Assembly (NCBI GenBank): GCA_951406725.2 | Contig: OX597821.1 | Location: 23,560,001-23,624,000 of the forward strand | Source of the DNA: Octopus vulgaris | Lineage: Eukaryota | DNA: 64,000 bases | Direction: 5' to 3' | Shown: one piece after another, positions 6,392-60,400 of the stretch | How the letters are laid out: each line of letters starts with the position of its first letter | Position numbering within the stretch: position 1 is the stretch's first letter | Program-made: the position numbers and the translations under genes | Notes under the pieces: generated by a model | The model's database searches: none | Seen by the model: the letters and a program-made list of their open reading frames with translations, nothing else | Told to the model about the DNA's origin: nothing

Positions 6392-7248
6392 GTTGTTACC
6401 CAGTGTTATTTAATCTAATGACGATATCAGTTCTAACTTACTATACGTATTATTGTTAGCGAATAGATCCTATTGGCCGTAATTAATAAAATGTCAGTCT
6501 GTAAAACGGATTGTAATCCAAGTACCGGTTCATATGATACATATGCATCAAGAAATGTTTAACTTCACACTTAATGTTGGCAAAAAAATCATTATTATCT
6601 AAATGTGTAATTGTGGTTTTAAAAAAATGCAGGGGAGATAACTCCAAAATTATAATTAATTAAAATTAATCAAATATGGAAAGTAGTGAGATATTAAACC
6701 GTATTGTGAAATAACTCTGGACATGTTTTGGTCTCATTAGACCTCATCAGTGAATTATAGTTTATTCGCGGGTGAAAGATCTTAGAATGACAAGAATTTT
6801 TTTTTCGGAAATGAACAGAGCAGATGACATAATAGATTAAATGAACGACTCGGAAGAATTCCTGGGGACCAATGCTGCATGAAATCTTAACAGCAAAGTG
6901 AGTGTTAGTATACTTGATGTAGCTGGACAATAAACTCGAATTAACTAAAACAGCACCCTTAACACTAAGAAAAATTATAGTCTAAATCAGGGCACGGCAA
7001 GTTACAGCCAGTGGCTTCACTTCGATCAGCTTGCTAATTTTGAATATGTGACGGTGCATACAAAACGTTTTTGTTACCCATTGTTATCTTTAGACAATGA
7101 AGAACAGCATTTTAACATTGAAGAAAACAAAAAGAGCAAAGCGTATTTTTCACCTGTCATTTATCGCTATGGTAAGCGCTAACAATGAAATTCTAATTGT
7201 ACAATACAAGCAGCTTTGCATCAAAATCGCTACCTACATGACACACTA

Positions 7249-23570: not shown

Positions 23571-23682
<112 letters not shown>

Positions 23683-23892
23683 GTATATATATATATACAC
23701 ATATATATATATATATATATATAACATAAGGGACTAAAGCCATCTGAATATGGCTAGGGACAGGGCAGGGTGGTGGGGGTGTTACTGTTGCATTTAGCCC
23801 CAGGCGAACGTCGACGTCACCAGAAAGGCTCGACACCGTCACGGTGCCCTAAACCTGCAAAGGGAGGTAATTCCCCGATGAAGCGGAAACCA

Positions 23893-23938
23893 CACACGGA
23901 CCATGGTTTCAAGGTGTATTGCCTATCATCGGCGTGTG
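23893..23938 (-). ncRNA. Type I hammerhead ribozyme motif (U4C variant), copy 1
   Basis: Minus strand reads cacacg CCGATGA t-agg-caataca-cct-t GAAA CCATGG TC cgtgtg: 6-bp helix I, helix II, palindromic helix III, GUC site. Confidence 0.7.
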
Positions 23939-24251
23939 GTAGGCCTCCGCTTCCTCGACGAATTCTCACTATGCAGGATTTCTTATATAGATTTTCAAGC
24001 AAAATACATTTGCTGATTTCGAAAATCTGTTCGAAAGCAATAATAATTCTCTAAAAGGGATATAGACAGTAACTGCTCGATAACATAAGGGACTAAAGCC
24101 ATCTGAATATGGCTAGGGACAGGGCAGGGTGGTGGGGGTGTTACTGTTGCATTTAGCCCCAGGCGAACATCGACGTCACCAGAAAGGCTCGACACCGTCA
24201 CGGTGCCCTAAACCTGCAAAGGGAGGTAATTCCCCGATGAAGCGGAAACCA

Positions 24252-24297
24252 CACACGGACCATGGTTTCAAGGTGTATTGCCTATCATCGGCGTGTG
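24252..24297 (-). ncRNA. Type I hammerhead ribozyme motif (U4C variant), copy 2
   Basis: Identical to copy 1, 359 nt away. Confidence 0.7.
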
Positions 24298-24757
24298 GTA
24301 GGCCTCCGCTTCCTCGACGAATTCTCACTATGCAGGATTTCTTATATAGATTTTCAAGCAAAATACATTTGCTGATTTCGAAAATCTGTTCGAAAGCAAT
24401 AATAATTCTCTAAAAGGGATATAGACAGTAACTGCTCGATAACATAAGGGACTAAAGCCATCTGAATATGGCTAGGGACAGGGCAGGGTGGTGGGGGTGT
24501 TACTGTTGCATTTCCGCTTCATCGGGGAATTACCTCCCTTTGCAGGTTTAGGGCACCGTGACGGTGTCGAGCCTTTCTGGTGACGTCGATGTTCGCCTGG
24601 GGCTAAATGCAACAGTAACACCCCCACCACCCTGCCCTGTCCCTAGCCATATTCAGATGGCTTTAGTCCCTTATGTTATCGAGCAGTTACTGTCTATATC
24701 CCTTTTAGAGAATTATTATTGCTATATATATATATATATTATATATATATATATATA

Positions 24758-25168
24758 GGCGCAGGAGTGGCTGTGTGGTAAGTAGCCTGTCTACCAACCA
24801 CATGGTTCCGGGTTCAGACCCACTGCCTGGCACCTTGGGCAAGTGTCTTCTACTATAGCCTCGGGCCGACCAAAGCCTTGTGAGTGGATTTGGTAGACGG
24901 AAACTGAAAGAAGCCCGTCGTATATATGTATATATGTATATATGTATGCGTGTGTGTGTTTGTGTGTCTGTGTTTGTCCCCATAGCGTTGCTTGACAACC
25001 GATGCTGGTGTGTTTGTGTCCCCGTCACTTAGCGGTTCGGCAAAAGAGACCGATAGAATAAGTACTGGGCTTACAATAGAATAAGTTCCGGGGTCGAGTT
25101 GCTCGATTAAAGGCGGTGCTCCAGCATGGCCGCAGTCAAATGACTGAAACAAGTAAAAGAGTAAAGAG
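24758..25168 (+). mobile_element. SINE family B, full-length
   Basis: Complete consensus match. Confidence 0.9.
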
Positions 25169-25581
25169 TATATATATACGTACGTATATATATATACGTA
25201 CGTACGTATGTATGTATGTATGTATGTATGTATGTATGTATGTATGTATGTATGTATGTATGTATGTATGTATGTATGTATGTATGTATGTTTGTGCTTA
25301 TGTTCGTCCCTCATCACCGCCGGACAACCGGCGTTATTATATTTACATCCACGAAACTTATCGGTAAAAGAAATCGATAGAATTTCTAAGTACCAAACTT
25401 AGAATAAAAACAAGTACTGGGATTAATTCGTTCGACTAAAACTTTTCAAGTTGCTGTCCCAACAGTCCGATGACTGAAACATAAAATACACACACACACA
25501 CACACACACACACATGCATGCTTGTATATATATATATATATACTCACACATGTATGCTTGTATATATAAATATATATATTA

Positions 25582-25808
25582 GGGCGGCGAGCTGGCAGAA
25601 TTGTTAGCACGCCGGGCGAAATGTGTAGCCGTATTTCGTCTGCCGTTACGTTCTGAGTTCAAATTCCGCCGAGGTCGCCTTTGCCTTTCATCCTTTCGGG
25701 GTCGATTAAATAAGTACCAGTTACACGCTGGGGTCGATATAATCGACTTAATCCGTTTGTTTGTCCTTGTTTGTCCCTTCTGTGTTTAGCCCCTTGTTGG
25801 TAGTAAAG

Positions 25809-28876: not shown

Positions 28877-29064
28877 AATTATCCGTGTGGGACTCTAGAC
28901 TCTGCGGTCTAAAAGTTTCATGTATTACAAAACAATCATCAGTAAGGAAGAAAACACATCTAATTCGTAGTATTGTGGTACTATGCCACTTTTTCTGTGT
29001 CTCACACATACATTTATAGATACGTACGTACATAACTATCTATCTATCTATCTATCTATGTATG

Positions 29065-29116
<52 letters not shown>

Positions 29117-29130
29117 AGTCTATCTATCTG

Positions 29131-29216
<86 letters not shown>

Positions 29217-29217
29217 A

Positions 29218-31621
29218 ACAGGGATGCAGTTTACGCGAACCCGAAAGGATGTGTGAGACCTTTCAACAACACTTTGCTCGACTGTTTGGTGCGAGTGGTG
29301 GGTCGGAACGCGGGATGGATTTCAGTACCTACCTGACCGACCTGCCGCGGCTCTCGGTAAGAGAAGCGGAGTGTTGTGAAAGTCCCATCACGGCCGCTGA
29401 CGTGCGGGATGCGATGGCGAGCTGCGCGAGGGATAAGTCGCCTGTATTGGATGGCTTACCCTACGAGCTGTATAGTCAAATGCCAGACTTGTTTGGCGAC
29501 CTCTTGGCATCAGTCTACTGCAACTGGCAACAAAACGGGAAAATCCCCGGTTTCGTGAGCCGAGGTGCAGTGACGTTGCTGAAGAAAGACCCAAACAAGG
29601 GGAATTTTATAGATAATTTCAGGCCCATCACTCTGCTTAACGCAGATTTGAAAATTTTGACCGAAGTAATAGCCGAGAGGTTGGCGCTTGTCATTGGCAA
29701 ACTGGTCGACAGGGCGCAAACATGCGCCGTGCCGGGCAGAACCATACATGACAACCTCCATCTGATGCGCTACATTGTGGACAGGGTAGTTAAGGATCCT
29801 GGCATGAGTGGGGCGCTGATCAATTTGGATCAGTCTAAAGCCTTCGATAGGGTAGACCATCGGTACTTGGCGGCCGTCCTCAGGGCGGCTGGCTTCGGTC
29901 CCGTCTTCCGCGGTTGGATCGCTGCCTTGTATAGCGGCATCCGATCGGTGATTCGGGTGAACGGTCACCTGTTGAAACCGTTTGACATCACGCGTTCGGT
30001 CAGTCAGGGGTGTCCTCTGTCGGCGCTTCTGTATGTATTGACTCTCGAGCCGCTACTGCGGAAGCTGGCGACACTGAGGGGCATCCCACGGGAACTGGGT
30101 TGCGGGACGAGCGTGTCAGCATATGCGGACGATGTCACCGTCATAGTGTCGAGCGAAAAACATCCAGATGATAGGCGAGACACTAAGAAAATACGAAACG
30201 GTGACGGGAGCGAAGATTAACCCGGAAAAGTCAGTGGGTTTGCTACTCGGCACCTGGAGAAGCAAGCCCATGCCGTCCGACTGCGGCTCAGTAGTGGGAC
30301 GCTGGACGGACGGACCGGTTAAATTGCTCGGGGTCTGGTTCAGTTCGGGCCTCCAAATGGATAAGAACTGGGACGAGATCACGAGTAGAGTGGTCGCTCT
30401 CAGCCAAACATGGGCCGAGAGAAAGCTGTCTCTTAAAGGTCGGGCGGAGGTGGCGAACGCGTACATCGCATCCGTCATCGATTACCGCCTGACCGTCGTA
30501 CCTTGTCCCGACGCCACCATCACCAAACTGGAACGCATACTCTTCCGCTTCCTGTGGAAGGGTGGCGTTCCAATGGTGAGGAGGTTCATTTGCTGTCAAT
30601 ATCCGTTGAATGGAGGACTAGGCACGCCGTGGTTGATGATGCGCAGGCATGCGCTGAGACTGTGACATCTCTGGAACTTTATCGATGACGGTGAACAGGT
30701 GTGGGTGCCGTTTGTGAGGCGCACCTTCCCTCAGCTCGTCTCACTGACCGAACTGCAAACGTGGATCAGGAAGAGACCGAAATTGGGCGATTAGCATCGA
30801 GAGTGTCGCCAAGCTCTACAGCAGCTCTGCCGACCGGGGTCAAACTTGTGCAACTTACAAACGACTAAAGCGTTCTATAGAGGACTAGTGAAGGGGAGGT
30901 CCGACGACACACTCGGAGCAAACCTGGGCGTCGACGAGAAATTCCTAACCCGCCTGTTCAGGACGAAGTTCGGCCCGGGGCCTATGGATAACTTCCAGAA
31001 ATCCCTGGCTTGGCAATCCTATCGAGATGCACTACCTGTTCGAGAGAAGAGCTACAGGCACGGTTCGAAAACCATCAGCGGACCGACCTGCCCGAGATGC
31101 GGTCAGAGCGACGAAACCGTTCTGCACGCACTCGTGCAGTGTCCAAATATTTCAGAGCTGTGGACCTTCGTCGAACAGCTGTTGTCGCGTGTAGGTCGGG
31201 CCCGCTTATCGGCCGAGTCTATCGTGAATATTGTTCCACCACCTCCCTTTAAACGGGAAGGGAAAACGGTTTTCGTTACGCTGATGGCTATGGCGAAAGA
31301 ATGTGTGTGGTGGACGTGTTTGAAAGGACTGCAAACAAACACCTTCCTCTCTGGTCAGTCTCTCAACTTTTTCAAGTACCACTTGAAAAGGAGGATGAGA
31401 ATAGAGAGGAAGGCTTTGTCGAACGAATGTTTTAATAAAAAGTGGGTAAAAGTGGCAAAAATGGTCAGTATAAAAGACGACACTATTTTAAGCGTAAATC
31501 TGTGACCAAAAAAGACAACAAGAGGTAAGGTGACTTACTCATGTGTTCATTTTCGGACTGTCTGAGGTGACCTTGGTCTTTTTTGTAGGTTTTTCTTTCC
31601 AGGGCTACACCTAAACTGTGA

Positions 31622-38847: not shown

Positions 38848-38987
38848 TATGGATCAAAACAGTTTGATTCAAACTCGTGTTTCAAAGCATGATGCCAATC
38901 CTCAGCCATTGGAAATGGCTGAGGATTAGCATCACACTTTGAAACTCTGAGTACCAACGAATTTGAATCAAACTGTTTTGATCCATA
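38848..38987. mobile_element. Palindromic MITE (TA-flanked)
   Basis: tatggatcaaaacagtttgattcaaa...aatcctcagccatt-gga-aatggctgaggatt...tttgaatcaaactgttttgatccata forms an almost complete hairpin. Confidence 0.75.
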
Positions 38988-39097
38988 TGTATATATATAT
39001 ATATATATATGTATAAGGGTGAAAAGGAACACACGAGTTGATATATATGAAAAAACAAGTCAAAAATAGAAAATGCTAAAATAATTTTATAGTGAAC

Positions 39098-39143
39098 ATT
39101 TCAGTACCGGTTTCGGTCATTTTGAGACCTTTTCAACTGTAAC
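39098..39143 (-). ncRNA. PLE hammerhead ribozyme motif (U3-A8 variant), inverted copy
   Basis: Exact reverse complement of 42302-42347. Confidence 0.7.
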
Positions 39144-40420
39144 GATTAAATAATTAAATTTAGAAAAATTAGAAGAAAAGTTTTTTAAAAGAATATTTCT
39201 ATAGTAGTGTTCAGATTTAAGTGGCATTCTGTCTTTCTCTGACTCCCTTGTTTGCACTTGTGTGTCGGAGGTCGTTGTGAGTTCTTGGAAGTGTAGTAGA
39301 GGAAGAAGGCTGGTGGGGAAAGGGGGATGGGAGAATCTGGGAGTGCCCTGATGGTCGTATTTTGAATGGTCAGTGGCGGCTGGCAGTCTCAGTTCAATTC
39401 AGGAGAATATTTATATTGACAGGCTTGTTTATAGAATTAGCGTGGGTGTTATACTAAAAAACATTAGTGACAAAGTTAAGGGGTAGGGGGTGGAGAAGTA
39501 GAAGAAGAAGAAGAAGAAGAAGAAGAAGAAGAAGAAGAAGAAGAAGAAGAAGAAGGAGAAGATGACGATGATGGTGGTGGTGGTGATGATTATGACGACG
39601 ATGATGATGATAATGATGATGAAGAAAAAGAAGAAGAAGGAGGAGAAGGAGAAGATGGTGGTGATGATGGTGGTGATGATGATGACGACGATGATGATGA
39701 TAATGATGATGATGAAGAAGAAGAGGATGAAGAAGAAGAAGAAAAAAACAGAGAAGGGGGAATATGAATGGGTGTAAGTATAGCTATGAAGGGGCTGATT
39801 AGTAATGGATTCTATGGAGTGTAATATTTGTGTGTGTATATATATTTTTTTCTTTTATTCTAAAGTTGAGGTATATCAATTGTTTGTCGTAGACCCGTTT
39901 AGAAGTGGCTTGTATTTTGTAATAAAGAGATTTTCTTTACTTATTCGTTGTCTCGAGGTTGTATCGTCCCTAAATTGGTAGAGGGGGAAAATTCTGAAGT
40001 TTGGTGTTTTTTGTTGGCGCAAGTATCTATGTGTTGGCTAAAAGCTATTTTTCTGTTTTGGGGAATTTTTATCTGGGATCTGTGCAGGGCCATTCGTTTA
40101 CGCAAACCATTTTTTGTTTGGCCTATGTACTGCTCTTGACACCCGGAGCAGGTTAGTGAGTATATTAGGTTCTCCGAAGCACATGTGAAGTTGCTTTTCA
40201 CTGTAAACCGTTGTCCCTGCTTGAAGGAGAACTCTGATCCCTCAATTAGATAGTCGCATATCCCGCAATTGGGTCTTCCACATTTTTTTACTGTCGGCTT
40301 CTGTGTTGAGGAGTGAATTCGGGCTTGTGTAAGGAGACTTTTCATGGATCTAGGCTGTCTTTTGCTTTTTATGATCGTGTGTGTTTGGAGGATTGTGTTC
40401 ATTCTGTGGTCTTTTTTTAG

Positions 40421-41560
40421 TCATAGGATACCTAGAGATCAGTCTGTATCGTAAGGTTCTAGAAAGATATGGCAGCCCTTTCTCCATCTACATAGAAAAC
40501 AACTGGAAGAGATATCTAGATGACTGTTTCATCCTTTGGCATAAAAATATAGAAAAACTCATAGAATTCCAGAAAATTTTAAACGGACTGGACGTAAACA
40601 TCCAATTCACGATGGAATATAGCCAACAACAACTCCCCTTCCTCGATATCCTCATTAAGAAAGCTAATAATATAATAGAAACAGACATATACTATAAGCC
40701 TACAGACTCTAAGCAATATCTTCCATTCAATTCATGCCACCCCAGACACACCAGGATGATTATCCCCTTCAATCTAGCAAAAAGGATATGCACTATAGTC
40801 TCTAACGCAAATACCAGAGACACACGACTACAAGAACTAAAAGATACCCTAATCACCAGGAACTATCCACCTTCACTTATTGACAAGTGCATTCAACGTG
40901 CCCTTCAACTTAACATCAAGGAACTGAGACATCCCAAATCAAAGAAAAACTTACAACCAAAAGCCTTACCATACATCTCCACACACAACCCTCTCAATAA
41001 CGAAGCCTTCGACACCATCCTCCACAACATACCCCTCCTAAAAAAAGACCACAGAATGAACACAATCCTCCAAACACACACGATCATAAAAAGCAAAAGA
41101 CAGCCTAGATCCATGAAAAGTCTCCTTACACAAGCCCGAATTCACTCCTCAACACAGAAGCCGACAGTAAAAAAATGTGGAAGACCCAATTGCGGGATAT
41201 GCGACTATCTAATTGAGGGATCAGAGTTCTCCTTCAAGCAGGGACAAACGGTTTACAGTGAAAAGCAACTTCACATGTGCTTCGGAGAACCTAATATACT
41301 CACTAACCTGCTCCGGGTGTCAAGAGCAGTACATAGGCCAAACAAAAAATGGTTTGCGTAAACGAATGGCCCTGCACAGATCCCAGATAAAAATTCCCCA
41401 AAACAGAAAAATAGCTTTTAGCCAACACATAGATACTTGCGCCAACAAAAAACACCAAACTTCAGAATTTTCCCCCTCTACCAATTTAGGGACGATACAA
41501 CCTCGAGACAACGAATAAGTAAAGAAAATCTCTTTATTACAAAATACAAGCCACTTCTAA
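40421..41560 (+). pseudogene. PLE RT-GIY-YIG ORF, truncated and frameshifted
   Basis: Open from the junction at 40421. +1 A near 41248 is absent from the inverted copy; a further frameshift near 41450 is present in both arms. Confidence 0.85.
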
Positions 41561-57420: not shown

Positions 57421-60400
57421 CAGGTCACATGAGAAGCTGGTTGAACTTGGTGACTTTAATGCACGTTTTGGTAGAGCAGTGGTTTTCAACCAGGGTTCCG
57501 TGGAACCTTAGGGTTCCGCCAGTACAGTCCAGGGGTTCCGCAAGAAGTTACAAAACTGCTAAAATCGACAGTAATTTTTAATTTTCCTATGCAGATGTGT
57601 GTGCATGAGACTATTAAATCATTGCACAGGGGTTCCTCGAGCCAGTGGAATGTTTCCTTGGGGTTCCACTTCAGCAAAAAGTTTGAAAAGCACTGTGGTA
57701 GAGACTATGGTGCTTGGAATGTACTTGGGCGTTACGGAATAGGAAAGGTGAACAACAATGGGTTGCATTTACTACAAATGTGCTCTGAGCTAGCGCTGGT
57801 TGTTGGGATGACTTTCATTCACCATAAGATGAAACATAAAATTACCTGATACACCCAAGATCAAAGTGAGGTCACATGATTGAATCATGATTGACTTTGT
57901 ATTAACTCGGAAAGCTGACTTACAAGATTTGTGCAGTCTCAGAGAATTACGAGGTGCTGACTGTGATACTGATCGCAAAATGGTTAGGGCCAAGTTCAAG
58001 TTCAGGGTCCGCAAGAAAATTCGTAGTGCAGGTGTACGAGTACCAAAGAAAAATGATGCAGAGCAACTAAAACAGTTGAGGTTATTTCAGAAGAGATGCG
58101 GCGATGTTCATTTTGAAAGTTCATGGCAATCTTTCCGGGATGGAATATATAAAATGGGATCAGAGGTGTTAGGTTTGAAGAGGAGACAGCACCGAGACAG
58201 GTTTGATTCCAATGATATGATGATAAATGAACTTTCAGCAACAAAGAGATCCACTCGTGATAAGTTTCTTGAGCCAAACGTTAAGAACAAAGTGCGACTA
58301 GAAAAGTTGTACATGTCTCAGAAAGCAGACTTGCAAAAAGAACTCAGGAGGCTTAGAGACACTTGGTGGAGAATTTTGTCTGAGGAAGAACAGGCAACCT
58401 ATGACCGGAAAGACATTAAAAGTTTCTATAGTTTATTGAGCCAAGCTTTTGGACTGCAATCTTCATCATCATATGTTCCCTTGAAGTCGAAAGATAGAAA
58501 TGAGGTTTATTAAAGATCCTCCTGGAATAATGAATAGATGGAGAGAACACTTTGCAGATCTTTTCCACAATCCATCTGTAGTGAACATGGATATCGTAAA
58601 CAACATTCCACAAAGAGAGATACTGCAACAGTTTCCATTGAAAAAGTAAATCTGTCATTATGTAAACTGAGTTCAGGTAAAGCTCCTGGATTGAATGATA
58701 TTCCAGTTGAAATTCTGAAAGCAGGTGGGGATGATATTTCATCTGAAATTCGTGGCCTGAGTTTGGAATGAATCTTCTGTGTCACAAGAATGGATAAATG
58801 GCATTCTAATGTCTGTATACAAGGGTAAGGGCCCGAAAGCAGTGTGTGGTAATTCTAGAGGTATAACTCTCCTGACACATACGGGAAAATACTTTCAAGG
58901 ATATCGTCTCGTTGAGAATGTGTGCCTACATATGATTCCTGAAGAACATATGAGCGAGGAACAATGGACATGACACTTTCTGTAAGGCAGGTTCAAGAGA
59001 AATGCTTTTGTGTAAACTTGGTTGTCCAACACATTTTGTGAACATTTTTAAAGAACTACACAGAAACATGAAAGCTCAAGTAGTCCTTAATGGTGAGCCA
59101 TCTCATGAATTTTCGGTGGACAACGGTGTCAAGCAGGGAGATATTCTTGCCCCTACATTTTTCTCTATTTATTTTGATGCATTGCTTTGGTATGCTTTTA
59201 AGGATTGCAACAAGGGAATCGGAATATGATTTCGGACATCTGGTCATATTTTTAATTTGACCCAGTTTAACTGCAAAGCAAAGACTTTCAAAATGCTTGT
59301 TAGGGAATTACTTTATGCTGATGATGGTGATTTGTTGGTACACTCAGAGGGGGATACGCAACATTTAATGGACAGATTTCCCACTGCATGTGTACAGTTT
59401 GGAGAAAAACAAAGTAACGTTTACTCCTGTGCCAGGACAAACATATTCTGAACCAAACATTTTTGTGAATGGAACAAGGCTAGAAGTCGTCGACACCTTT
59501 GTTTACCTTGGAGGCACACTGTCAAGAGATGGTGGTCTTGATGCAGAGATATACTATCGAATAGGGAAGGGAAGTGTTGCATTTTGAAAACTCGAAAATC
59601 GAGTATGGGTGGATAGATATTTCGCTCCAGACAAAAATCAGTGTCTATAAAGCGTGTGTATTGTCTGCACTTCTTTTTACAAGCATCATATAAAAATGCT
59701 GGAGTGATTTCATCAAAAGTGCCTCAGACATATCTTAGGAGCCAAGTGGGAATATTTCATACCAGATACAGAAGTTTTGCGCATGCCACGTTGCAGGTCA
59801 ATTGAACAAAATGTTATCTTGGCTAAAATGAGATGGACTGGACATGTTATTAGAATGAAAGACGAGCATTTACCAAAGCGTCTTTTTTATGGTGAGCTCA
59901 ACTCTGGTAAGCGGCCACAACATAAGTCGAGGAAAAGGTATAAAGACTGTGTGAAAGAAAACCTGAAGAAACTAGATATGAACAAGAGTGATTGAGAAAA
60001 TGATGTTCTTGATCGGAACAAGTGGAGAGGTGCTGTTAGGACTGGTTGCAATGTCTGGGAGGAAAAGATGATTCAGCACTCTGAGCTTAAAAGGGACTGT
60101 CGCAAAGGAACAATTGGAACTGTAATCAACAGTGAACATTGGATATGCATTATATGTGATCGTGTTCTGTTGTCAAAAGCAGGATATGTGAATCATATGA
60201 AGTCACATGAAAATCGTAATGCCTGATAGGTAATTTTCTTGGACACCAACCACCTCTTATGACTTGTATCATATGTCATAAAACTTGTAAGACAATATCT
60301 GGGCTTAAAAGACATATGCTAGTTCACAAAAAACATTCCTTCAGAATCAGATTCCAAAGAGCAAATATATAGAAGAAACTTGAATAATATTTGTCATTTA

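What the first reader, a model, noticed from the sequence alone, without database searches (positions are those of the whole stretch)
23721..24723. 359-bp tandem unit with one hammerhead per monomer: candidate cephalopod retrozyme / circular RNA system
Seen: two complete, near-identical 359-bp units plus a partial third and an inverted 213-bp piece, with (TA)n on both sides and no credible ORF. The minus strand of each unit folds as a type I hammerhead: cacacg-CCGAUGA-u agg caauaca ccu u-GAAA-CCAUGG-UC^cgugug. Helix I extends further (gaagcggaggcc/gguuuccgcuuc, then ccugca/ugcagg). Predicted cuts at 23899/23898 and 24258/24257 would release exactly one 359-nt monomer. Established: metazoan non-LTR retrozymes are tandem units of a few hundred bp with type I HHRs that yield circular RNAs and are thought to be mobilised by Penelope-like RTs. 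A palindromic helix III (here ACCAUGGU) allows dimeric HHRs between adjacent units. Inference: this is a recently active non-autonomous ribozyme retroelement copied from a circular RNA. Caveat: the core departs from consensus (U4C, U-U at 10.1/11.1).
Basis: partly seen in the sequence, partly recalled or inferred. Interest (0 to 1): 0.9.

Follow-up and report, generated by a model that had tools for sequence, protein, structure and literature searches.

The report
Retrozyme with paired Penelope insertion ends
This is one insertion of a young, protein-free repeat family with over a thousand copies in this animal genome; each unit carries a predicted self-cutting hammerhead RNA with an unusual core, and the strictly paired ends of its insertions show the marks of Penelope-type jumping genes, which likely copy it, probably from a small RNA circle.

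Summary
Observation confirmed: 2.2 tandem 359-bp units plus a 213-bp inverted arm inside (TA)n, with a type I hammerhead fold per unit on the minus strand. It belongs to a young family (over 1,300 hammerhead cores; 108 loci examined). 85 of 108 loci are head-to-head two-arm insertions. In 77 of 77 with both ends classifiable, one arm ends near monomer position 178 and the other near 222, giving a 44-nt Penelope 'tail'. Non-TA sites show 10-12-bp duplications. An active Neptune element here obeys the same rule (17 of 17) and has the same odd core (C4, U·U), but shares no sequence with the unit. C4 is old in this lineage, helices I and II covary, and one subfamily keeps the helix III palindrome through a double change, so the fold looks selected, probably as a dimer. 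Cleavage and circular RNA are not shown. Some arrays are mosaics that a pure monomer circle cannot make. Verdict: a non-LTR retrozyme, almost certainly Penelope-mobilised; circle about 60%. This scan already noted the same kind in this genome, probably this family too. Interest 0.5.

The parts
23574..23723 (.). left (TA)n target tract
23721..24513 (-). long arm, 793 nt, 2.2 units; its RNA-sense 3' end at 23721 is the 'short' start site (monomer position 178), its 5' break is at monomer position 104
23721..24079 (-). 359-bp unit 1
24080..24438 (-). 359-bp unit 2 (one difference from unit 1; 46.8% G+C)
24439..24513 (-). partial third unit (75 nt)
23893..23938 (-). type I hammerhead 1 (core CCGAUGA, U·U at base of helix II, palindromic helix III); predicted cut 23899/23898
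   Evidence: cleavage untested
24252..24297 (-). type I hammerhead 2; predicted cut 24258/24257
   Evidence: cleavage untested
23899..24257 (-). predicted cut-to-cut monomer, 359 nt, highly self-paired; monomer position 1 = window 24257
   Evidence: z -5.5 linear, -4.8 as circle; existence as RNA untested
24511..24513 (.). head-to-head junction of the two arms, 3-nt overlap
24511..24723 (+). short inverted arm, 213 nt (monomer positions 10-222), ending at the 'tail' start site
24680..24723 (+). 44-nt 'tail' between the two inferred reverse-transcription start sites (monomer 179-222), terminal on this arm only
24723..24757 (.). right (TA)n target tract

Best explanation
This is one two-armed insertion of a young, non-coding retrozyme family, likely written into a TA microsatellite by a borrowed Penelope-like (probably Neptune) reverse transcriptase-endonuclease that would start DNA synthesis at two fixed RNA sites 44 nt apart, one from each end of the cut target, probably while running round a one-unit RNA circle made by slow, dimeric hammerhead cleavage. 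Steps: (1) arrays are transcribed in the minus sense (inferred; no promoter found); (2) adjacent hammerheads pair through the palindromic helix III and cut, and monomers are ligated to circles (fold supported by covariation; cleavage and circle inferred); (3) the enzyme nicks both strands of AT-rich DNA about 10-12 bp apart (duplications shown; enzyme inferred); (4) one target end primes near position 178 and the other near 222, never both at the same site (shown as an end pattern); (5) the two cDNAs stop at random points and are joined head to head over 0-4-nt overlaps (pattern shown); (6) arrays are later reshuffled and shortened at the DNA level (inferred). My odds: Penelope-mobilised retrozyme about 0.92; hammerhead still cuts in vivo about 0.7; circular template about 0.6; Neptune as the partner clade about 0.6.
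For: Copies: 851 exact cores, control 0; 469 more with another base at position 7, control 5, 92 of the first 100 from this family; 165 with U4, control 0, partly overlapping the 851 and the pattern not covering them. Architecture: of 108 loci 85 are minus-then-plus, 0 plus-then-minus, 23 single-arm; 77 of 77 classifiable two-arm loci pair one short and one tail end (41+36), 8 had one end unclassifiable. 138 of 155 3' ends in the first 88 loci abut TA repeats. Duplications of 10-12 bp at the three clear non-TA sites L047, L201, L281. These are described Penelope marks (PMC8557442, PMC3846280 passages), and the tail is the stretch between two RT start sites (PMC11167929). Active enzymes exist: Neptune-type RT+GIY-YIG families with 775-aa ORFs (76 of 76 scored hits 100% identical) and 781-aa ORFs; the 775 family shows the same end rule in 17 of 17 two-arm insertions. 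Hammerhead fold: over 20 motifs from four related families, 88% of cells pair, 33 cells change on both sides against 13.0 in shuffles (0 of 500), slid controls pair 20-39%. Helix III changes from ACCAUGGU to ACCUAGGU, still a palindrome, in 9 of 20 UU-subfamily loci. One-unit template: 246 shared variants are fixed in all covering units of their locus against 20 partial; 8 loci carry a private variant in every covering unit, 5 of them in both arms, up to 13 of 13 units. 5' breaks are spread evenly round the unit, 5 of 155 within 3 nt of the cut against 3.0 expected. The youngest subfamilies have the longest arrays (arm-to-arm differences 1.5, 2.2, 3.0, 7.9, 9.3 per kb against mean 12.7, 5.3, 2.8, 3.1, 2.2 units), which suggests arrays are born long.
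Against: No cleavage or RNA circle was observed. The core is off-consensus in every subfamily: CCGA, or UUGA in 99 of the first 100 U4 copies. U4C lowers activity in vitro (PMC3088659 passage). The hammerhead fold costs +7.4 kcal/mol on the circle and +14 to +15 for two hammerheads on the 2.2-unit transcript, monomer or dimer alike. In the lizard element hammerhead mutants did not affect insertion in vitro and uncut RNA was the main substrate. 17 of 88 loci have variants in some but not all units (about four look like alignment noise), including switches between subfamily haplotypes near the junction (L049, L211, L168), which a single monomer circle cannot make. The apparent lack of spreading variants in the hammerhead (1 of 46 sites against 29 of 313, p 0.08) vanished when 20 UU loci were added (6 of 46 against 44 of 313). 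The unit shares no sequence with either active Neptune family, so the partner is not identified. The array-length trend rests on 4 loci for the youngest group and on a window-type sample biased towards long arrays. The covariation control ignores relatedness, and the core columns of that alignment were fixed by the search pattern.
Confidence: 0.6

Rival explanations
1. Same Penelope-type two-ended insertion, but the template is an uncut linear multimer transcript of an existing array. The hammerhead is slow or dispensable, and long arrays come from DNA-level duplication of units after insertion.
For: Mosaic arrays, including two-unit repeats of a variant (L045, L053) and haplotype switches mirrored in both arms (L049). 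Weak cores in all subfamilies, with a C3U subfamily that still spread. Uncut RNA was the substrate in vitro for the lizard element. No 5' breaks pile up at the cut, which fits this as well as a circle.
Against: Each round would shorten arrays, yet the youngest subfamilies are longest and nearly free of differences. Private variants fill both arms in 5 loci. Helix covariation and the kept palindrome argue that the ribozyme fold matters.
Confidence: 0.3
2. The hammerhead cuts to linear monomers and the reverse transcriptase builds arrays by jumping from one cut monomer to the next, with no circle.
For: Haplotype switches inside a few arrays (L049, L168, L211). Three arms end at monomer position 2.
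Against: No significant excess of 5' breaks at the cut (5 of 155 against 3.0). Most arrays are of one haplotype although at least five circulate. In L049 the switch maps between positions 199 and 276, not at the cut.
Confidence: 0.07
3. An ordinary satellite or a DNA-only rolling-circle repeat, or an assembly artefact, with a chance hammerhead-like motif.
For: Tandem structure; no Rfam hit; DNA-level reshuffling is visible.
Against: Two fixed 3' ends paired 77 of 77, TA targets, 10-12-bp duplications, dispersal over many contigs, and the same rule in a bona fide RT element; helix covariation.
Confidence: 0.03

Closest known systems
Metazoan non-LTR retrozymes (Cervera and de la Pena 2020, PMC7229834, parts 2-4 of 6 read; Li, Clavereau and Pollet, bioRxiv 10.64898/2026.07.22.740005, parts 1-3 of 5 read)
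   Same: Non-coding tandem units of a few hundred bp (mussel 350-390), under 50% G+C, one type I hammerhead per unit, highly self-paired monomer, duplications longer than 4 bp, coexisting Penelope-like elements. The axolotl motif HHR_Amex2 also has a U·U pair at the base of helix II.
   Different: Core is CCGA or UUGA, not CUGA. Insertions are head-to-head two-arm arrays with two fixed, always unlike ends, which the text I read does not describe for retrozymes. Cleavage and circles were shown there and are not shown here. No homology to a Penelope terminal repeat was found, unlike 24 of 57 Xenopus families.
Endonuclease-bearing Penelope-like elements, Neptune clade (PMC8557442 and PMC3846280, passages; PMC11167929, parts 1-2 of 4; PMC4209133, parts 1-2 of 4)
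   Same: Partial tandems, an inverted 5'-truncated copy, a 30-40-bp tail at one end, AT-rich or (TA)n targets, 8-10-bp duplications, a hammerhead with palindromic helix III, two internal RT start sites.
   Different: No ORF; unit 359 bp instead of several kb; tail 44 nt. The papers call the tail optional or often one-sided and saw no strand difference in start site in vitro; here the one-short-one-tail pairing is strict (77 of 77, and 17 of 17 in a Neptune family).
U4C hammerhead variant of a viroid (as cited in PMC3088659, passage only; original paper not read)
   Same: C in place of U at core position 4.
   Different: There a rare variant with reduced activity; here the majority state of several retroelement families with thousands of genomic copies.
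L1 twin priming (recalled, no call)
   Same: Two target ends prime on the RNA and give a head-to-head inversion joined over short overlaps.
   Different: In L1 one end is the poly(A) tail and the second site varies; here both sites are internal and fixed, and both arms can hold many units.

Membership tests
Metazoan non-LTR retrozyme | Tandem units of about 150-450 bp, many genomic copies | tested here: met
   359/360-bp units, over 1,300 cores, arrays up to 23 units
Metazoan non-LTR retrozyme | A type I hammerhead fold in each unit | tested here: met
   Helix I and II covary across related families; core is a non-consensus variant; Rfam does not detect it
Metazoan non-LTR retrozyme | No coding capacity, no long terminal repeats | tested here: met
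   Longest frame 98 aa stop to stop; ends lie inside the unit; PBS and PPT not searched
Metazoan non-LTR retrozyme | G+C under 50%; target duplication longer than 4 bp | tested here: met
   46.8%; 10-12 bp at L047, L201, L281
Metazoan non-LTR retrozyme | Self-cleavage of the transcript | not testable with these tools
   Needs in vitro transcription; folding predicts a competing structure
Metazoan non-LTR retrozyme | Accumulates as circular RNA | tested here: inconclusive
   Only indirect genomic signs, for and against
Consensus hammerhead ribozyme | Core CUGANGA | tested here: not met
   CCGAUGA here; CCGACGA and UUGA(U/C)GA in sister subfamilies; 1 CUGA among the first 100 U4 copies
Consensus hammerhead ribozyme | Paired 10.1-11.1 (usually G-C) | tested here: not met
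   U·U here, mostly A·A in older families
Consensus hammerhead ribozyme | GAAA, cleavage triplet NUH, three helices | tested here: met
   GAAA and GUC present; helices supported
Consensus hammerhead ribozyme | Loop 1-loop 2 tertiary contact | not tested
   No model made
Penelope-like element (autonomous) | ORF with RT and GIY-YIG endonuclease | tested here: not met
   None in the unit; it is non-autonomous
Penelope-mobilised element | Inverted 5'-truncated copy, one-sided tail, AT-rich target, short duplication | tested here: met
   85 of 108 loci two-armed; 77 of 77 one tail; 138 of 155 ends in TA; 10-12-bp duplications
Penelope-mobilised element | Sequence shared with the terminal repeat of an autonomous partner | tested here: inconclusive
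   No match to the two active Neptune families or to 50 GIY-YIG loci; only 150 of 6136 endonuclease candidates were scored, and Poseidon, Nematis and Naiad types were not sampled

The most novel reading that the evidence does not exclude
A dimeric Neptune enzyme holds one small circular RNA and fires two reverse transcriptases from two fixed sites 44 nt apart, one per target end, so every insertion gets exactly one tail. The retrozyme and the most active Neptune family have independently settled on a deliberately slow C4 / U·U hammerhead that cuts only as a dimer or with the protein bound, so that circles are made once and then survive as templates.
Probability: 0.3. Interest if true: 0.75.

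Novelty: new variant of a known kind. Interest (0 to 1): 0.5.

Why it matters
How animal retrozymes are copied, and how Penelope-like elements make their inverted, one-tailed insertions, are both open questions. Published support for the link is co-occurrence and terminal-repeat homology. Here a retrozyme carries the Penelope integration signature itself, with a strict one-short-one-tail rule over 77 insertions, beside Neptune elements with intact, identical ORFs. That gives a ready enzyme-template pair and two exact predicted start sites for an in vitro test. It also shows that a hammerhead core missed by consensus searches and Rfam (C4, U·U) is the majority form in thousands of genomic copies, so motif surveys may undercount these elements. 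It is not a new class, and this scan has met the same kind repeatedly.

Tried and rejected
RNA evidence: no RNA holder listed (all 'RNA?' labels are guesses). Contigs of 4 such runs cover all 30 of 30 bins and close on themselves, but a tandem repeat does that as well as a circle, so this says nothing on expression or circularity. Rfam at E<=10: no hammerhead. Partner search: a 78% match to the tail in L129 looked like a Penelope end but is a separate older retrozyme insertion; three long-helix-II hammerhead loci and other look-alikes had no RT nearby. I first read U4C as a recent change because asked for CUGA only; one search overturned that, and the CUGA copies of old families are probably CpG decay (inference). 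Depletion of variants in the hammerhead did not hold up. Arm lengths: tail arm not longer than short arm (33 of 61, p 0.53) and uncorrelated (rho 0.05). No Pol III A or B box matched recalled patterns. My covariance model scores the window motifs by construction and is not evidence. PMC3376415 passages gave nothing on U4C. PMC5785218 on dimer-cleaving Penelope hammerheads is not held, and the supplement of PMC7229834 could not be read; either may already list cephalopod or C4 motifs. The bioRxiv supplements were not seen.

Full report
Observation. Two 359-bp units (23721-24079, 24080-24438) differ at one base, 75 nt of a third follow, and 24511-24723 is an exact inverted copy of 24036-24248, all between two (TA)n tracts. 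No frame inside the units exceeds 98 aa. The minus strand holds a type I hammerhead arrangement with predicted cuts at 24258/24257 and 23899/23898. The monomer is strongly self-paired (z -5.5, 0 of 100 shuffles). Rfam finds no hammerhead. Below, monomer position 1 is window 24257 on the minus strand.

A young dispersed family. A search of the genome gave 266 matches from 40 of 656 candidates, the 150 listed being 99-100% identical. Exact pattern counts give 851 cores of the window type (control 0), 469 with another base at the free position 7 (control 5; 92 of the first 100 belong to this family) and 165 with U at position 4 (control 0, partly overlapping). Contig C1 (226 Mb) holds 45 loci by my count of these lists, which extrapolates to roughly 550 in the genome. 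I fetched 108 loci: 37 from the best hits (biased to long, window-like arrays), 51 taken in positional order, and 20 chosen. Older related families with about 345-350-bp units, the same helix III and shared blocks also exist.

Insertion anatomy. Of 108 loci, 85 are two-armed with both RNA-sense 3' ends pointing outwards, none has the reverse order, and 23 are single-armed. The 3' ends are fixed: among 155 ends of the first 88 loci, 67 map to position 178 and 57 to 222, and 138 abut TA repeats. In all 77 two-arm loci with both ends classifiable (windows 165-182 and 214-226), one arm has the short end and the other the tail end (41+36); 8 loci had one end outside these windows. The window locus follows the rule. 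At non-TA sites the target is duplicated over 10-12 bp (L047, L201, L281). The inner 5' breaks are spread evenly round the unit, and 50 of 67 junctions overlap by 0-4 nt.

What this means. An inverted 5'-truncated copy, a 30-40-bp tail at one end and a microsatellite target are described marks of Penelope-like elements (PMC8557442, passages; PMC3846280, passages). In a lizard element the tail was shown to be the stretch between two internal RT start sites, and the enzyme cut and extended both strands (PMC11167929, parts 1-2 of 4). I infer that each target end primes at one of the two sites and that the two cDNAs are joined head to head. PMC3846280 offered self-priming on an antisense template as another route to head-to-head structures; strictly unlike ends and short junction overlaps fit two-ended priming better, but this is inference.

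Candidate enzymes. The genome has many Neptune-type elements with RT, a CxxC linker and GIY-YIG (clade assigned from the linker as described, no tree built). Two are very young: a 781-aa family (98-100% amino-acid identity in 13 of 14 full copies) and a 775-aa family with a 4,271-bp period (76 of 76 scored hits 100% identical). Both end in (TA)n at two alternative points. In the 775 family 17 of 17 two-arm insertions have one short and one tail end. Neither shares sequence with the 359-bp unit, so the partner is not identified; other clades were not sampled.

Is the hammerhead real? For: across 20 motifs from four related families, helices I and II covary (33 cells changed on both sides against 13.0 shuffled, 0 of 500; 88% paired against 20-39% in slid controls). 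The core columns there were fixed by my pattern, and the shuffle ignores relatedness. One subfamily changed two adjacent bases of helix III at once and kept the palindrome (9 of 20 loci; two other loci have non-palindromic forms), as the dimer model of PMC4209133 (parts 1-2 of 4) predicts. C4 is not recent decay: 34 of 50 older-family copies have it (one spurious row dropped). The 775 Neptune hammerhead also has C4 and U·U in about 61 of the first 100 of 2,225 matches (hand count, control 10), and its C4 copies are the younger ones (median 99.6% alike against 92.4%; sample partly chosen for intact ORFs). U·U at the base of helix II occurs in an active axolotl motif (PMC7229834). Against: U4C lowers activity in vitro (PMC3088659, passage); a subfamily with U3-U4 and no G8 compensation still spread; the lowest-energy fold pairs the core with helix II, and forcing the hammerhead costs 7.4 kcal/mol per motif; a test for fewer spreading variants in the motif was marginal and then failed. 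I conclude the fold is selected and probably slow or dimer-dependent; activity is untested.

Circle or multimer? For a one-unit template: 246 shared variants are fixed across their locus against 20 partial and 60 single; 8 loci have a private variant in every covering unit, 5 in both arms. No breaks pile up at the cut (5 of 155 against 3.0 expected), so cut linear monomers are unlikely templates. The youngest subfamilies have the longest arrays, with the sampling caveats given. Against: 17 of 88 loci are partly mosaic, some with two-unit repeats of a variant or haplotype switches near the junction. These need multimer templates, template switching or later DNA exchange. Uncut RNA was the main substrate for the lizard enzyme in vitro. 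I put the circle at about 0.6.

Relation to what is known. It meets every non-LTR retrozyme feature that I could test; cleavage and circles remain open (PMC7229834, parts 2-4 of 6; PMC7761336, passages). A 2026 preprint links animal retrozymes to Penelope elements by co-occurrence and terminal-repeat homology, sampled no mollusc, and saw cleavage in only 1 of 9 tested dimers (10.64898/2026.07.22.740005, parts 1-3 of 5). My searches (listings only unless named above) showed no paper on cephalopod retrozymes, on two-arm one-tail insertions of retrozymes, or on C4 cores in retroelements. The library lacks most subscription papers, and two likely sources could not be read. This scan has already noted the same kind in this genome and another, including 358-360-nt repeats that are probably this family, and the two fixed ends; I saw those notes.

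Verdict. A real, recently active, non-autonomous hammerhead retroelement: a new variant of a known kind. Its value is the strict end-pairing rule, the lineage-wide C4 core shared with an active Neptune family, and a concrete in vitro test. Interest 0.5.

Noticed in passing
L255:2080-6610 (G000:C1:64676300-64683400) and L233-L272: Very active Neptune-type family, 4,271-bp tandem period, with an upstream 454-aa frame besides the 775-aa RT-endonuclease ORF; Penelope-like elements are usually described with one ORF. Hammerhead with C4 and U·U in the younger copies.
   Followed up: partly
L115-L128 (for example L118:944-6200): Second young Neptune-type family, 781-aa ORF plus an upstream 479-aa frame with no Pfam match over cut-off; no hammerhead found in its terminal repeat by my pattern.
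   Followed up: partly
window about 38970-41560, minus strand: Decayed Neptune-type element (56-60% aa identity to the 781-aa ORF) with a decayed hammerhead-like motif near its 3' end, ending at (TA)n.
   Followed up: partly
window 6712-6758, minus strand: Weak match to my hammerhead model (15 bits, E 0.03): CUGAUGA core, palindromic helix III, broken GAAA; probably a decayed Penelope-type hammerhead.
   Followed up: partly
L068-L084, L158, L159, L183, L184, L220, L129:6480-6718, L132:300-1300: At least four older retrozyme-like families related to this one, several also head-to-head, sharing a block after the hammerhead and a tail motif.
   Followed up: partly
L041 and L205: Two loci of different subfamilies have the same inversion junction (positions 98 and 161, 9-nt overlap), which points to microhomology-guided joining.
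   Followed up: no
L212 / L254 (G000:C1:42384400-42389500): A retrozyme insertion sits in the same TA tract that ends a 775-aa Neptune insertion.
   Followed up: no
L181:4930-4975, L182:4434-5597, L125:1850-1900, L089:190-240: Other hammerhead families with longer or shorter helix II, two of them also with CCGA cores.
   Followed up: no
window 29036-31505 (+) and 57884-58513 (+): Frameshifted LINE-type reverse transcriptase fragments, judged by eye from the translations.
   Followed up: no
window 24758-25170 and 25580-25800: Short interspersed repeats flank the insertion; they resemble cephalopod SINEs (label recalled, not from a call).
   Followed up: no
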